Source: the human T2T-CHM13v2.0 reference genome, Homo sapiens. From it: DNA of 64,000 nucleotides. The DNA is taken from assembly GCF_009914755.1 (NCBI RefSeq), contig NC_060935.1, one strand, 5' to 3'. Shown piece by piece: positions 15,431-47,971 of this stretch; position 1 is the stretch's first letter, and each line of letters opens with the position of its first letter. The notes beneath the pieces are model-generated. The model searched no databases. It saw only the letters and a list, made by a program, of their open reading frames with translations, and was not told the origin of the DNA. The position numbers and the translations under genes were made by a program.

Positions 15431-18400
15431 GATCCCATTCCAAGATGGCCGAATAGGAACAGCTCTGGTCTACAGCTCCCACTGTGATCAACGCAGAAGA
15501 TGGGTGATTTCTGCATTTCCAACTGAGGTACCTGGTTCATCTCATTGGGACGGGTTGGACAGTGGGTGCAGCCCATGGAGGGCGAGCCGAAGCAGGGCGA
15601 GGCGTTGCCTCACCCAGGAAGTGCAGGGGTCGAGGGATTTCCCTTTCCTAGCCAAGGGAAACTGTGACAGACCATACCTGGAAAAACAGGACACTCCTGC
15701 CTAAATACTGTACTTTTCCAATGGTCTTAGCAAACGGCACACCAGGAGATTATATCCCCTGCATGGCTGGATAGGTCCTACGCCTATGGAGCCTTGCTCA
15801 CTGCCAGCACAGCAGTCTGAGAAGGATCTGTGAGGCAGCAACCTGGCAGGGGGAGGGGCGTCCACCATTGCTGAGGCTTGAGTAGGTAAACAAAGCAGTC
15901 AGGGAAGCTTGAACTGGGCAGAGCGCACCACAGCTCACCAGGCCTGCTGCCTCTGTAGACTCCACGTCTGGGGGCAGGGCATAACTGAAGAAAAGGCAGC
16001 AGAAACTTCTGCAGACTTAAACGTCCCCGTCTCACAGCTGTGAAGAGAGCAGTGGTTCTCCCAGCATGGTGTTTGAGCTCTGAGAACGGACAGACTACCT
16101 CCTCAAGTGGGTCCCTGACCCCTGTGTAGCCTAACTGGAGACACCTTCCAGTAGGGGGCTGATTGACACCTCATACAGGCAGGTGCCCCTCTGGAACAAA
16201 GCTTCCAGAAGGATCAGGCAGCAATATTTGCTGCTCTGCAATCTTTGTTGTTCTGCAGCCTCTGCTGGTGATCCCCAGGGAAACACGGTCTGGAGTAGAC
16301 CTCCAGCAAACTCCAACACACCTGCAGCTAAGGGATCTGACTGTTAAAAGGAAAACCAACAAACGGAAAGGAATAGGATCAACATCAACAAAAAGGATAT
16401 CCACACCAAAACCCCATCTGTAGGTCACCAACATCAAAGACCAAAGGTAGATAAAAACCACAAAGATGGGGAGAAACCAGAATAGAAAAGCTGAAAATTC
16501 TAAAAACCAGAGCACCTCTTCTCCTCCAAAGGATCGCAGCTCCTCGCCAGTAACAGAACAAAGCTGGACAGACAATGATTTTGACAAGTTGACAGAAGTA
16601 GGCTTCAGAAGGTCAGGAATAAGAAACTTCTCCAAGCTAAATGAGGATGTTTGAACCTATCGCAAGGAAGCTAAAAACCTTGAAAAAAGATTAGACGAAT
16701 AGCTAACTAGAATAAACAGTGTAGAAAAGAACTTAAATGACCTGATGGAGCTGAAAACCATGGCGCAAGAACTACATGATGCATGTACAAGCTTCAGTAG
16801 CCGATTTGATCAAGTGGAATAAAGGGTATCAGTGACTGAAGATCAAATGAATGAAATAAAGCAAGAGGAGAAGTTTAGAGAAAAAAGAGTAAACAGAAAT
16901 GAACAAAGCCTCCAAGAAATATGGGACTAGGTGAAAAGACCAAATCTACGTTTGATTGGTGAAACTGAAAGTGACAGGGAGAATGGAACCAAGTTGGAAA
17001 ACACTCTTCAGGATATTATCCAGGAGAATTTCCCCAACCTAGCAAGGCAGGCCAACATTCAAATTCAGGAAATACAGAGAACACCATAAAGATATTCCTT
17101 GAGAAGAGCAACCCCAAGACACATAATTGTCAGATTTACCAAGATTGAATTGAAGGAAAACAATGTTAAGGGCAGCCAGAGAAAAAGGTCAGGTTACTCA
17201 CAAAGGGAAGCCCATCAGACTAACAGCAGATCTCTCAGCAGAAACTCTACAAGCCAGAAGAGAGTGAGAGCCAATATTCAACATTCTTAAAGAAAAGAAT
17301 TTTCAACCCAGAATTTCATATCCAGCCAACTAAGCTTCACAAGTGAAGAGGAAATAAAATCCTTTCTAGACAAGCAAATGCTGAGAGATTTTGTCACCAC
17401 CAGGCCTGCCCTAAAAGAGCTCCTGAAGGAAGCACCAAACACGGAAAGGAACAACCAGTACCAGCCACTGCAAAAACACGCCAAATTGTAAAGACCATCA
17501 ATGCTAGGAAGAAACTGCATCAACTAACAGGCAAAATAACCAGCTAACATCATAATGACAGGATCTAATTCACACATAACAATATTAACCTTAAATGTAA
17601 ATGGGCTAAATGCCCCAATTAAAAGACACAGACTGGCCAATGAGATAAAGAGTCAAGACCCATCAGTGTGCTGTATTCAGGAAACCCATCTCACGTGCAG
17701 AGACACACATAGGCTCAAAATAAAGGGATGGAGGAAGATCTACCAAGCAAATGGAAAACAAAAAAAAAAGCAGGGGTTGCAATCCTAGTCTCTGATAAAA
17801 CAGACTTTAAACCAACAAAGATCAAAAGAGACAAAGAAGGCCACTACATAATGGTAAAGGGATCAATTCAACAAGAAGAGCTAACTATCCTAATTATATA
17901 TGTACCCAATACCAGAGCACCCAGATTCATAAAGCAAGTCATTAGAGAACTACAAAGAGACTTAGACTCCCACACAATAATAACAGAAGACTATAACACC
18001 CCACTGTCAATATTAGACAGATCAACGAGACAGAAAGTTAACAAGGATATCCAGGACTTGAACTCAGCTGTGCACCAAGCCAACTAAATAGTCATCTACA
18101 GAACTCTCCACCCCAAATCAACAGAATATACATTCTTCTCAGCACCACATCACACTTATTCCAAAATTGACCACATAGTTGGAAGCAAAGCTCTCCTCAG
18201 CAAATGTAAAAGAACAGAAATCACAACAAACTGTCTCTCATATGACAGTGCAATCAAATTAGAACTCAGGATTAAGAAACTCACTCAAATCCTGAAAAGT
18301 GCATGGAAACTGAACAACTTACTTCTGAATGACTACTGGGTAAATAACGAAATGAAGGCAGAAATAAAGATGTTCTTTGAAACCAATGAGAACGAAGACA

Positions 18401-21400
18401 AAACGTACCAGAATCTCTGGGACACATTTAAAGCAGTGTGTAGAGGGAAACTTATAGCACTAAATGCCCACAAGAGAAAGCAGGAAAGATCTAAAATTGA
18501 CACCCTAACATTACAATTAAAAGAACTAGAGAAGCAAGAGCAAACAAATTCAATAACTAGCAGAAGGCAAGAAATAACTAAGATCAGAGCAGAACTGAAG
18601 GAGATAGAGACACAAAAAACCCTTCAAAAAATCAATGAATCTGGGAGCTGGTTTTTTGAAAAGATCAACACAATTGATGGACCGCTAGCAAGACTAATAA
18701 AGAAGAAAACAGAGAAGAATCAAATAGACACAATAAAGATGATAAAGGGGATAGCACCACCGATGACAAAGAAATACAAACTACCATCAGAGAATACTGT
18801 AAACATCTCTATGCAAATAAAATAGAAAATCTAGAAAAAATTGATAAATTCCTGGACACATACACCCTCCCAAGACTAAACAAGGAAGAAGTTCAATCTC
18901 TGAATAGACCAATAACAGGCTCTGAAATTGAGGCAATAATAAACAGCCTACCAACCAAAAAATGTCCAGGACCAGACGGATTCACAGTGGAATTCTACCA
19001 GAGGTATGAACAGGAGCTGGTACCATTCCTTCTGAAACGATTTCAATCAATAGAAAAAGAGAAAATCCTCCCTAACTCATTTTATGAGGCCAGCATCATC
19101 CTGATACCAAAGCCTGGCAGAGACACAACAAAAAAAGAGAATTTTAGAACAATATCCCTGATGAACATCAATGCTAAAATCCTCAATAAAATACTGGCAA
19201 ACTGAATCCAGCAGCACATCAAAAAGTTTATCCACCACGATCAAGTTGGCTTCATCCCTGGGATGCAAGACTGGTTCAACATACCCAAATCACTATATGT
19301 AATCCATCACATAAACAGAACCAATGACAAAAACCACATGACTATCTTAATAGATGCAGAAAAGGACTTTGACAAAATTCAACAGCCCTTCATGCTAAAG
19401 ACTCTCAATAAACTACGCACTGATGGAATGTATCTCAAAATAATAAGAGCTATTTATGACAAACCCACAGCCAATATCATACTGAATGGGCAAAAACTGG
19501 AAGCATTCCCTTTGAAAACCTGCACAAGACAGGGATGCCCTCTCTCACCATTCCTATTCAACAAAGTATTGGAAGTTCTGGCCAGAGCAAGCAGGCAATA
19601 GAAAGAAATGAAGGGTACTCAATTAGGAAAAGAGAAAGTCAAATTGTCCCTGTTTGCAGATGACATGATTGTATATTTAGAAAACCCCATCGTCTCAGCC
19701 CAAAATCTCCTTAAGCTGATAAGCAACTTCAGCAAAGTCTCAGGATACAAAATCAATGTGCAAAAATCACAAACATTCCTATACACCAATAACAGACAAA
19801 CAGCCAAATCATGAGTGAACTCCCATTCACAATTGCTACAAAGAGAATAAAATACCTAGGAATCCAACTTACAAGGGATGTGAAGGACCTCTTCAAGGAG
19901 AACTACAAACCACTGCTCAACGAAATAAAGGAGGACACAAACAAATGGAAGAACATTTCATGCTCATGGATAGGAAGAATCAATATTGTGAAAATGGCCA
20001 TACTGCCCAAGGTAATTTTATAGATTCAATGCCATCCCCATGAAGCTACCAATGACTTTCTTCACAGAATTGGAAAAAACTACTTTAAAGTTCATATGGA
20101 ACCAAAAAAGAGCCCACATTGCCAAGACAATCCTAAGCAAAAAGAACAAAGCTGGAGGCATCACACTACCTGACTTCAAACTATATACAAGGCTACAGTA
20201 ACCAAAACAGCCTGGTACTGGTACCAAAACAGAGATATAGATCAATGGAACAGAACAGAGGCCTCAGAAATAACACCACACATCTACAACCATCTGATCT
20301 TTGACAAACCTGACAAAAACAAGAAATGGGGAAAGGATTCCCTATTTAATAAATGGTGCTGGGAAAACTGGTTAGCCATATGTAGAAAGCTGAAACTGCA
20401 TCCCTTCCTTACACCTTACACAAAAATTAACTCAAGATGGATTAAAGGCTTAAATGTTAGACCTAAAACCATAAAAACCCTAGAAGAAAACCTAGCCAAT
20501 ACCATTCAGGACATAGGCATGGGCAAAGAATTCATGACTAAAACACCAACAGCAATGGCAACAAAAGCCGAAATTGACAAATGGGATCTAATTAAACTGA
20601 AGAGCTTCTGCACAGCAAAAGAAACTACCCTCAGAGTGAACAGGCAACCTACAGAATGGGAGAAAATTTTTACAATCTACCCATCTGACAAAGGGCTAAT
20701 ATCCAGAATCTACAAAGAACTTAAACAAATTTACAAGAAAAAAAACAAACAACCCCATCAAAAAGTGGGCAAAGGATATGAACAGACACTTCTCAAAAGA
20801 AGACATTTTTGCAGCCAACAAACATATGAAAAAAAATCTCATCATCACTGGTCATTAGAGAAATGCAAATCAAAACCACAATGAGATACCATCTCATGCC
20901 AGTTAGAATGGTGATCATTAAAAAGTCAGGAAACAACAGATACTGGAGAGGATGTGGAGAAACAGGAACGCTGTTACACTGTTGGTGGGAGTGTAAACTA
21001 GTTCAACCATTGTGGAAGACAGTGTGGTGATTCCTCAAGGATCTAGAACTAGAAATAACATTTGACCCAGCGATCCCATTACTGGGTATATACCCAAAGG
21101 ATTATACATCATGCTACTATAAAGAGACACGCACATGTATGTTTATTGTGGCACTATTCACAATAGGAAAGACTTGGAACCAAGCCAAATGTCCATCAAT
21201 GATAGACTGGATTAAGAAAATGTGGCACATAAACACCATAGAATACTGTGCAACCATAAAAAAGGATGAGTTGATGTCCTTTGCAGGCACATGGATGAAG
21301 CTGAAAACCATCATTCTCAGCAAACTATCATAAGGACAGAAAACCAAACACCAAATGTTCTCACTCATGGATGGGAAGTGAACAATGAGAACACTTGAAC

Positions 21401-47800: not shown

Positions 47801-47971
47801 CATGTCCTTTGCAGGGACATGGGTGAAGCTAGAAACCATGATTCTGAGCAAACTATCCCAAGGACAGAAAACCAAACACCGCATGTTCTCCCTCATAGGT
47901 GGAAACTGAACAATGAGAACAGTTGGACACAGGGTGGGGAACATCACACACTGGGGCCAAAAAAAAAAAAA
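41863..47971 (+). mobile_element. Near full-length L1PA5/6-like element, inactive (L1 #3), with the 3'UTR end missing
   Basis: 5'UTR gatggccgaataggc, ORF1 at 42864, ORF2 remnants. TSD aaaagaatgaaa(c/t)tgg at 41847-41862 and 47968-47983. Confidence 0.95.
45052..46437 (+). pseudogene. 461-aa open remnant of L1 ORF2 (Z domain and RT with FADD)
   Basis: Contains [26 protein letters not shown] and LFADD. Cut from the endonuclease by a frameshift near 45025 and ended by the AT-rich insertion at 46424. Confidence 0.9.

What the first reader, a model, noticed from the sequence alone, without database searches (positions are those of the whole stretch)
15431..47971. Three neighbouring L1s share private inactivating mutations, suggesting local gene conversion in cis
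Seen in sequence: L1 #1 (15431) and #3 (41863) share two ORF1 stop codons, WDY>WD* (TAG at 16928-16930 and 43326-43328) and TPQ>TP* (TAA at 17087-17089 and 43486-43488). They also share KKKREK>KKKTEK (18710/45107), the 2-nt change EKEGIL>EKEKIL (19062-3/45460-1) and gcaaaa>gctaaa (19175/45573). All three copies (#1, #2, #3) share ENLGNT>ENLANT (20496/24483/47029), ETxIRV>ETxLRV, aaaatctcatc and aacagatact. #1 and #2 share gaattcatg, gccgaaatt, ctgttacact and aaccaagcc; #2 and #3 share ctaggaatacc. Between these patches the copies keep different subfamily diagnostics (e.g. ccatcacataaacagaaccaatgac vs ccagcatataaacagagccaaagac), and #1 and #3 have their own TSDs. The more diverged L1PA15/16 at 27708 keeps the consensus state (ctatactac, cctaggcaatacc) and acts as an internal control. 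Established: active source L1s cannot carry ORF1 stops (cis preference). Inference: the mutations arose after insertion and spread by repeated short non-allelic conversion tracts among direct repeats 4-26 kb apart. Consensus states are from memory.
Basis: partly seen in the sequence, partly recalled or inferred. Interest (0 to 1): 0.8.

Follow-up and report, generated by a model that had tools for sequence, protein, structure and literature searches.

The report
Neighbouring L1 repeats swapped sequence patches
Three old L1 retrotransposon copies within 32 kb of each other in a human intron share rare base changes near their 3' ends that are best explained by copy-to-copy gene conversion, a known process, while their two shared ORF1 stop codons are no more than unlinked copies share by coincidence.

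Summary
All quoted strings are at the stated places. The three L1s are separate insertions: their flanks are unrelated.

The headline claim is not supported. In the 5' 3 kb, #1 and #3 share 1 variant absent from 29 unlinked copies. Unlinked pairs share 1.28 on average. Of 351 unlinked pairs, 58 share two or more aligned ORF1 stops. The stops are not private: TAG occurs at 26 of 6667 places and TAA at 85 of 2303.

The 3' end of ORF2 does show local exchange.
- #2 is an older L1 type, while #1 and #3 have a younger backbone.
- In 20426-20960, #1 groups with #2 (support 99/95).
- #1 and #2 differ at 3.2% in 20478-20990, against 10-13% in neighbouring blocks.
- All three share rare variants. The combination 20496C with 20630C occurs only here in the genome. 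One #1/#2 haplotype occurs only in those two copies.
- The #1-#2 and #2-#3 pairs exceed 428 of 429 comparison pairs in exclusive shared variants.

This is an example of known ectopic gene conversion. Ape and macaque orthologues were not available to date the events.

The parts
15437..21640 (+). L1 #1. Full length, with the younger ('panel') backbone. Its ORF1 frame has 5 aligned stops in codons 16466-17190.
   Evidence: Self-BLAST. Subfamily painting and trees. Stops.
23754..25575 (+). L1 #2. A 5'-truncated 1.8-kb copy of an older L1 type, inserted into a still older L1.
   Evidence: Flanks read. Older-type state at 24 of the 35 diagnostic sites where it has sequence.
41869..47967 (+). L1 #3. 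Full length at the 5' end, younger backbone, early poly(A).
41847..41862 (+). 5' copy of the target-site duplication of #3. The 3' copy is at 47968-47983, with 1 mismatch.
16928..16930 (+). TAG stop in ORF1 of #1. The same stop is in #3 at 43326-43328.
   Evidence: 0 of 29 unlinked copies carry it. 26 of 6667 places genome-wide.
17087..17089 (+). TAA stop in ORF1 of #1. The same stop is in #3 at 43486-43488.
   Evidence: 85 of 2303 places genome-wide.
19043..19175 (+). Possible short #1/#3 tract (in #3: 45441-45573). It holds 4 of the 5 low-frequency sites the pair shares in 18641-19760.
   Evidence: 5 shared sites against a mean of 1.10; 1.3% of 299 other pairs reach 5. Identity here is 0.967 against 0.956 for the best unlinked copy.
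20091..20358 (+). Block II (in #2 about 24079-24346). Here #2 carries younger-type sequence and shares 20212C with #1.
   Evidence: 5 differences in 267 sites. #2 lies inside the panel clade, support 84/95. Not specific to #1: #2 is as close to the unlinked copy L065 (0.023).
20478..20990 (+). Block IV (in #2 about 24465-24963). A #1/#2 conversion tract in which #1 carries older-type sequence.
   Evidence: 16 differences in 499 sites, against at least 0.059 and 0.070 to any unlinked copy. Clade of #1 and #2 at 99/95. Haplotype unique in the genome.
47029..47473 (+). Stretch of #3 holding the four rare variants shared with #1 and #2. In #1 coordinates these are 20496C, 20630C, ATCTC at 20836 and 20942A.

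Best explanation
Three L1 copies of different ages inserted independently, in the same orientation, within 32 kb of an STK33 intron. They later exchanged short stretches by non-allelic (ectopic) gene conversion in the 3' part of ORF2, the only region present in all three.

The clearest event copied about 0.5 kb of the older-type #2 into the younger-type #1 (20478-20990). A second block (20091-20358) looks like younger-type sequence copied into #2. #3 shares only patches of tens of bases with the other two.

What is shown: the mosaic structure and the rarity of the shared variants. What is inferred: the direction, number and date of the events.

The two ORF1 stops shared by #1 and #3 are most likely parallel mutations that arose after insertion.
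For: 1. Independent insertions. Flanks match only at short dispersed repeats. #3 has its own target-site duplication, and #2 sits inside an older L1.

2. Different backbones. At 51 sites that separate 10 older-type copies from 17 younger ones, #2 is older-type at most sites, and #1 and #3 are younger-type at most sites. In 19761-20200 and in 21061-21590, #1 and #3 lie inside the younger clade (100/98 and 100/99) and #2 lies outside it.

3. Change of tree position. In 20426-20960, with 59 rows, #1 and #2 form a clade (99/95) among the older copies.

4. Block pattern of #1-#2 divergence: 0.100, 0.019, 0.126, 0.032, 0.110. In block IV this is about half the distance of either copy to its nearest unlinked copy.

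5. Exclusive shared variants in 19761-21590: #1-#2 has 5, #2-#3 has 4, #1-#3 has 2. The mean for 349 unlinked pairs is 0.77 and the 99th percentile is 3.6. Only 1 of 429 comparison pairs reaches 4.3.

6. Genome-wide rarity.
- 20496C: 32 places against 5832 with G.
- 20630C: 52 places, and 0 of 59 aligned unlinked copies.
- 20496C with 20630C: 3 places, all local.
- 20527A-20530A-20570G: 2 places, #1 and #2.
- Random unlinked triples have an exclusive triple-shared site in 8 of 3000 draws and never have two.

7. For the stops being coincidence.
Against: - A tree of the whole 20201-21060 stretch does not join the local copies. They form one clade in 4% of 200 bootstrap trees.
- A scan for unusually similar windows ranks the local pairs only 34th, 12th and 71st of 405, because divergence varies a lot along L1.
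- A Sawyer-type permutation test was uninformative for the same reason.
- Inside block IV, #1 keeps the younger state at 20628. It also does so at 20458, just upstream of the block. So the tract is patchy.
- For #3 the shared variants sit in identical runs of only about 19-90 nt, interleaved with differences at diagnostic sites. This needs several micro-tracts or patchy mismatch repair.
- There is no GC bias among the shared changes: 7 W>S to 5 S>W, against 48:47 for private changes.
- Exact-match counts are lower bounds.
- No orthologous loci could be examined.
Confidence: 0.65

Rival explanations
1. Sub-lineage signature. The shared variants were inherited from related source elements, and nothing moved between the copies after insertion.
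For: Single markers do occur in unlinked copies:
- 20496C with 20527A at 24 unlinked places.
- CATGCC with GATACT at 43.
- 20630C at 49.

Several shared states (20431C, 20527A, 20821A, 20825T, 20856T, 20898G, 20940A) are normal in an older type, and intermediates exist. The older-type states of #3 are a subset of those of #1, as successive subfamilies would give.
Against: - The marker sets do not overlap elsewhere. Of 10 copies chosen for 20496C, 0 have 20630C or the ATCTC change and 1 has 20942A. Of 12 copies chosen for 20942A, 0 have 20496C.
- The combined haplotypes exist only at this locus.
- #1 and #2 have different backbones on both sides of the shared block, so one source cannot have made both.
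- Three members of a lineage with some tens of detectable copies landing within 32 kb by chance is very unlikely. This last point is my estimate, not a computation.
Confidence: 0.12
2. The ORF1 stops, and the 18710-19175 changes, shared by #1 and #3 also spread by short conversion tracts over 26 kb.
For: - TAG is rare, 26 of 6667.
- Only 3 places in the genome have both stops, and two of them are #1 and #3.
- The same copies show exchange further 3'.
- In 18641-19760 the pair shares 5 low-frequency sites against a mean of 1.10.
- Tracts as short as 13 bp are reported for L1-L1 repair in mouse cells. I saw this as a passage in PMC1920257 citing Tremblay et al. 2000.
Against: - The count of shared rare variants in the 5' 3 kb equals the expectation for unlinked pairs: 1 against 1.28, and 3 against 2.85.
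- Any pair that shares two rare variants gives a near-unique combination, so the result is post hoc.
- Differences lie 25 nt before and 19 nt after the TAG, and 58 nt before and 8 nt after the TAA.
- The best 150-nt window reaches only the top 0.27% of pair-windows, before correcting for the many (about 60) overlapping windows tested for this pair.
- #3 is not among the 40 scored best matches to the ORF1 stretch of #1.
Confidence: 0.15
3. Pure coincidence of parallel mutations at every shared site.
For: Parallel mutation is frequent in old L1s. CpG-type stops recur in 9 to 16 of 27 copies.
Against: The 3' shared changes are mostly transversions at non-CpG sites, each at or below about 0.5% where measured. 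Three copies share four of them. No random unlinked triple out of 3000 shares two.
Confidence: 0.03
4. Assembly or polishing artefact that copied bases between the repeats.
For: None found.
Against: The copies are only 89-93% alike overall. The shared bases are interleaved with many differences, which is not what collapsed or mispolished repeats look like. This was not tested with reads.
Confidence: 0.02

Closest known systems
Non-allelic gene conversion between neighbouring Alu elements (Aleshin and Zhi 2010). I saw this only as cited in passages of PMC6598467 and PMC8230782.
   Same: Dispersed repeats exchange non-diagnostic mutations after insertion. The effect is strongest for close neighbours, reported within about 10 kb. 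The clearest pair here is 4 kb apart.
   Different: Here the repeats are L1s and the tract is about 0.5 kb. One partner lies 22-26 kb away. The evidence comes from one locus and not from a genome-wide distance curve.
Repair of a break in a LINE by gene conversion from other LINEs (Tremblay, Jasin and Chartrand 2000). I saw this only as cited in PMC1920257.
   Same: L1-to-L1 copying with short tracts, as small as 13 bp according to that passage. This would fit the patches in #3.
   Different: That was an induced break in cultured mouse cells, with donors anywhere in the genome. Here it is a germline, evolutionary outcome between neighbours.
L1 subfamily succession (the L1PA series). No repeat library was available to test them.
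   Same: Part of what looked like shared private variants are states of an older subfamily retained in intermediates.
   Different: Succession cannot explain variants that are rare in every type yet shared only by the three neighbours.

Membership tests
Non-allelic gene conversion between dispersed repeats | The partners are independent insertions, not a segmental duplication. | tested here: met
   Flanks match only at short dispersed repeats. #3 has its own target-site duplication, and #2 interrupts an older L1. The target-site duplication of #1 is not clear.
Non-allelic gene conversion between dispersed repeats | Relationships change along the element (mosaic structure). | tested here: met
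   #1 is inside the younger clade in 19761-20200 and 21061-21590 (100/98 and 100/99). It is sister to the older-type #2 in 20426-20960 (99/95). Not met for #3, which stays in the younger clade.
Non-allelic gene conversion between dispersed repeats | Shared derived variants are absent from unlinked copies of both types. | tested here: met
Non-allelic gene conversion between dispersed repeats | Contiguous tracts with definable ends. | tested here: inconclusive
   Block IV is contiguous except for the diagnostic site 20628 (20458 lies just upstream of it). The patches in #3 are only about 19-90 nt long.
Non-allelic gene conversion between dispersed repeats | The pre-conversion state is seen at the orthologous locus of another species. 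| not testable with these tools
   No primate genomes other than the window's own assembly were available.
L1 sub-lineage (shared source) signature | The same set of variants occurs together in many unlinked copies. | tested here: not met
   Single markers occur in 24 to 49 unlinked copies. The combinations occur in 0 or 1 unlinked copy.
Segmental duplication | Homology continues into the flanks. | tested here: not met

The most novel reading that the evidence does not exclude
Clustered old L1s decay in concert. Repeated two-way micro-conversion, with tracts from tens of bases to 0.5 kb and reaching 26 kb, spreads post-insertion mutations between neighbours, including inactivating ORF1 stops. 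Neighbouring L1s would then look younger and more related than they are. A distance-dependent conversion law like that reported for Alus would also hold for L1s.
Probability: 0.15. Interest if true: 0.5.

Novelty: new member of a known kind. Interest (0 to 1): 0.3.

Why it matters
Ectopic conversion between nearby repeats is established, mainly for Alus. A well-resolved L1 case shows three things:
- Subfamily calls and ages taken from the divergence of clustered L1s can be distorted.
- 'Shared private mutations' need genome-wide frequency controls before they are read as exchange.
- Shared stop codons in old L1s are a weak signal, because parallel stops are common.

The locus has no obvious functional consequence. 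The copies are dead and lie in an intron.

Tried and rejected
- Segmental duplication: rejected, because the flanks are unrelated.
- Sawyer-type fragment permutation test on 435 pairs: many unlinked pairs came out 'significant', so it was dropped as confounded by rate variation.
- Window scan for low divergence: the local pairs are not exceptional.
- GC-biased conversion signature: none found.
- The chr6 copy with both stops as a possible common lineage: rejected. It differs in the 5'UTR region (about 72% identity to #1 there). It is sister to another chr6 copy that has TAG (48 shared rare variants) but did not match the both-stops pattern. Its L1 homology ends about 3.2 kb into the element.
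- My first view that 20527A, 20431C, 20825T, 20856T, 20897/8 and 20940A were rare shared variants: rejected. They are older-type states.
- Three 'Z' loci (Z110, Z112, Z119) did not align in their 5' parts. I left them out of the tree, and their spurious 'shared' sites should be ignored.
- Searches failed because the machine was busy, and were repeated.
- No repeat library (Dfam) and no GENECONV or RDP were available.
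Full report
**Anatomy**

The window is an intron region of STK33, which lies on the minus strand according to the hub's table. It holds three L1 copies on the plus strand.
- #1 spans 15437 to about 21640 and is full length.
- #2 spans 23754-25575 and is a 1.8-kb 3' fragment.
- #3 spans 41869-47967.

#1 matches #3 at 89.2% over the 5' 4.6 kb and at 93.1% over the 3' 1.4 kb. #1 matches #2 at 91.3%. The flanks match each other only at roughly 300-nt dispersed repeats; calling them Alu-like is my recall. So this is not a segmental duplication.

#3 has a 16-nt target-site duplication with one mismatch and an early poly(A). #2 interrupts an older L1 whose sequence continues on both sides. 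For #1, an exact-word search found no duplication adjoining the element.

**Observation**

The older L1 used as a control has the usual state at 28028. The window's whole genome could be searched, so the recalled 'consensus' states could be checked against unlinked copies. Among the 29 unlinked copies closest to the ORF1 stretch of #1, 0 have TAG and 2 have TAA.

**The ORF1 stops**

Neither stop is private.
- The 21-mer with TAG occurs at 26 places, out of 6667 places with any base at that site. That is 0.39%.
- The 20-mer with TAA occurs at 85 of 2303 places, or 3.7%.
- A pattern requiring both stops finds 3 places: #1, #3 and a chr6 copy.

The chr6 copy differs in the 5'UTR region. It is sister to another chr6 copy that has TAG but did not match the both-stops pattern.

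The rarity of the pair of stops is a post-hoc measure. Any two copies that share two rare variants define a near-unique combination. The fair test is whether neighbours share more than non-neighbours do.

I aligned the first 3 kb of #1 and #3 with 29 unselected unlinked copies and 24 TAG carriers.
- #1 and #3 share 1 variant absent from all 29 copies, namely the TAG. They share 3 variants at a frequency of 8% or less.
- The means for 181 unlinked pairs are 1.28 and 2.85. The fractions of those pairs that reach the observed value are 55% and 36%.
- In the first 241 ORF1 codons, #1 and #3 each have 5 aligned stops, of which these 2 are shared. Of 351 unlinked pairs, 58 share two or more stops, mostly at CpG-type sites.
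- #1 and #3 differ 25 nt before and 19 nt after the TAG, and 58 nt before and 8 nt after the TAA. Any tracts would be at most 43 and 65 nt.
- The best 150-nt window for the pair starts at 16987. It reaches the top 0.27% of about 69,500 pair-windows, before correcting for the many (about 60) overlapping windows tested for this pair.
- #3 is not among the 40 scored best genomic matches to the ORF1 stretch of #1, out of 2106 candidates.

Nothing shows that they were copied.

**Mid ORF2 (18641-19760)**

#1 and #3 share 5 sites at a frequency of 12% or less: 18710, 19043, 19062, 19063 and 19175. The mean for other pairs is 1.10, and 1.3% of 299 other pairs reach 5. At a frequency of 0 the pair shares 1 site against a mean of 0.51. 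Identity in the 200-column window starting at 19013 is 0.967, against 0.956 for the best unlinked copy. This is suggestive only.

**The 3' part: what is ordinary**

I compared the local copies with four sets of unlinked copies:
- 17 copies taken as the downstream parts of the ORF1 panel (set P);
- the 20 best genomic matches to 20360-20960 (set Q);
- 10 copies chosen for 20496C with 20527A (set X);
- 12 copies chosen for CATGCC with GATACT (set Z).

X and Z turned out to be an older L1 type.

51 sites separate X from P. #2 is older-type at 24 of the 35 sites where it has sequence. #1 and #3 are younger-type at most sites. Trees agree: in 19761-20200 and 21061-21590, #1 and #3 sit inside the younger clade (100/98 and 100/99) and #2 sits outside.

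The states 20431C, 20527A, 20821A, 20825T, 20856T, 20898G and 20940A are normal for the older type, and intermediates exist. They are not evidence of exchange by themselves.

**The 3' part: what is not ordinary**

Four variants shared by all three copies are rare in every type.
- 20496C: 32 places against 5832 with G under the same anchors, or 0.55%.
- 20630C: 52 places genome-wide, and 0 of 59 aligned unlinked copies.
- The ATCTC change at 20836: 0 of the 100 listed places out of 10,798. Its six-A form occurs at 9 places, one of them #2.
- 20942A: 46 places together with CATGCC, and 1 of 47 aligned copies not chosen for it.

Elsewhere these markers do not travel together. Of the 10 X copies, none has 20630C or the ATCTC change and 1 has 20942A. 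Of the 12 Z copies, none has 20496C.

Combined patterns point the same way.
- 20496C with 20630C finds 3 places, all local.
- 20630C with 20942A finds the 3 local places and one other.
- #1 and #2 also share 20212C, 20530A, 20570G and 20973G, and less exclusively 20599G, 21184G and 21547A.
- The haplotype 20527A-20530A-20570G exists only in #1 and #2.
- #2 and #3 also share 20316C and 21053G.

Counting variants exclusive to a pair in 19761-21590 gives 5 for #1-#2, 4 for #2-#3 and 2 for #1-#3. The mean for 349 unlinked pairs is 0.77, the 99th percentile is 3.6, and the single higher pair is an obvious sub-lineage pair. Only 1 of 429 comparison pairs reaches the first two values. Of 3000 random unlinked triples, 8 have one exclusive triple-shared site and none has two.

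**The #1/#2 mosaic**

Substitution divergence between #1 and #2 runs in blocks.

| Block | Span in #1 | Differences / sites | Divergence |
|---|---|---|---|
| I | 19761-20090 | 32/321 | 0.100 |
| II | 20091-20358 | 5/267 | 0.019 |
| III | 20359-20477 | 15/119 | 0.126 |
| IV | 20478-20990 | 16/499 | 0.032 |
| V | 20991-21590 | 66/599 | 0.110 |

The low blocks total 21/766 and the high blocks 113/1039. Fisher's p is 1e-11, but I chose the block boundaries after looking at the data.

In block IV the nearest unlinked copy is at 0.059 from #1 and at 0.070 from #2. In a tree of 59 rows for 20426-20960, #1 and #2 form a clade (99/95) among the older copies. The simplest reading is that #2 donated this stretch to #1.

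In block II, #2 lies inside the younger clade (84/95), as if younger-type sequence had been copied into #2. However, #2 is as close there to the unlinked copy L065 (0.023) as to #1. Only 20212C points to #1 as the donor.

**#3**

#3 stays in the younger clade in every segment. Its link to the others is the four rare shared variants, the two shared with #2 alone, and 20372T shared with #1. These sit in identical runs of about 19-90 nt, interleaved with differences at diagnostic sites. This requires several micro-tracts or patchy repair of one long heteroduplex. Short tracts have precedent in L1-L1 repair, according to a passage in PMC1920257 citing Tremblay et al. 2000. I regard this part as inferred.

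**Against the reading**

- A tree of the whole 20201-21060 stretch does not unite the local copies. They form one clade in 4% of bootstrap trees.
- A low-divergence scan ranks the local pairs 34th, 12th and 71st of 405.
- A permutation test was confounded by rate variation.
- There is no GC bias among the shared changes.
- Exact-match counts miss copies with other mutations in the typed letters.
- The panels are small.
- No orthologues were available.

**Comparison with what is known, and verdict**

Distance-dependent ectopic conversion between neighbouring Alus, within about 10 kb, is described in print. I saw this as passages in PMC6598467 and PMC8230782 that cite Aleshin and Zhi 2010. L1-L1 conversion is known from break repair. 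Searches listed no paper on neighbouring L1PA copies homogenising, but I did not search exhaustively and I do not claim it is absent from print.

This locus is a new example of a known process. Subfamily names such as L1PA5-7 were not tested here.

Noticed in passing
window 46420-46562, and 47972-47995: #3 carries an AT-rich insert of about 140 nt where #1 has only a few bases (20018-20025). Inside the insert, 46457-46480 is an exact 24-nt copy of 47972-47995, which is the 3' target-site duplication and flank of #3, 1.5 kb downstream. This looks like a small templated insertion from nearby sequence.
   Followed up: partly
search result: All 26 places with the TAG 21-mer lie on contigs 1-12. 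Other pattern searches returned hits on all contigs. The tool says its counts are whole. If that scan was cut short, the TAG frequency (0.39%) and the count of double-stop copies are underestimates.
   Followed up: no
L037, L039, L050 (contigs 3, 4 and 10): Three unlinked TAG-carrying copies with different 5' flanks share 12-23 variants that are rare in the panel. They may simply belong to a subfamily poorly represented in the panel. They could also descend from a source that already had the ORF1 stop.
   Followed up: partly
L041 and L057 (contig 6, 0.79 Mb apart, opposite strands): These two copies share 48 rare variants at 92% identity. Both have TAG, and of the two only L057 matched the both-stops pattern. 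They are probably an old duplicated pair.
   Followed up: no
contig 1, about 120-149 Mb: Thirteen of the 85 TAA-carrying places cluster here. This fits one L1 copy multiplied by segmental duplication, so the number of independent TAA events is lower than 85.
   Followed up: no
window 47040-47055 (#3; #1 coordinates 20507-20519): #3 has four private substitutions within 13 nt, between two of the shared variants. This is a local mutation cluster.
   Followed up: no
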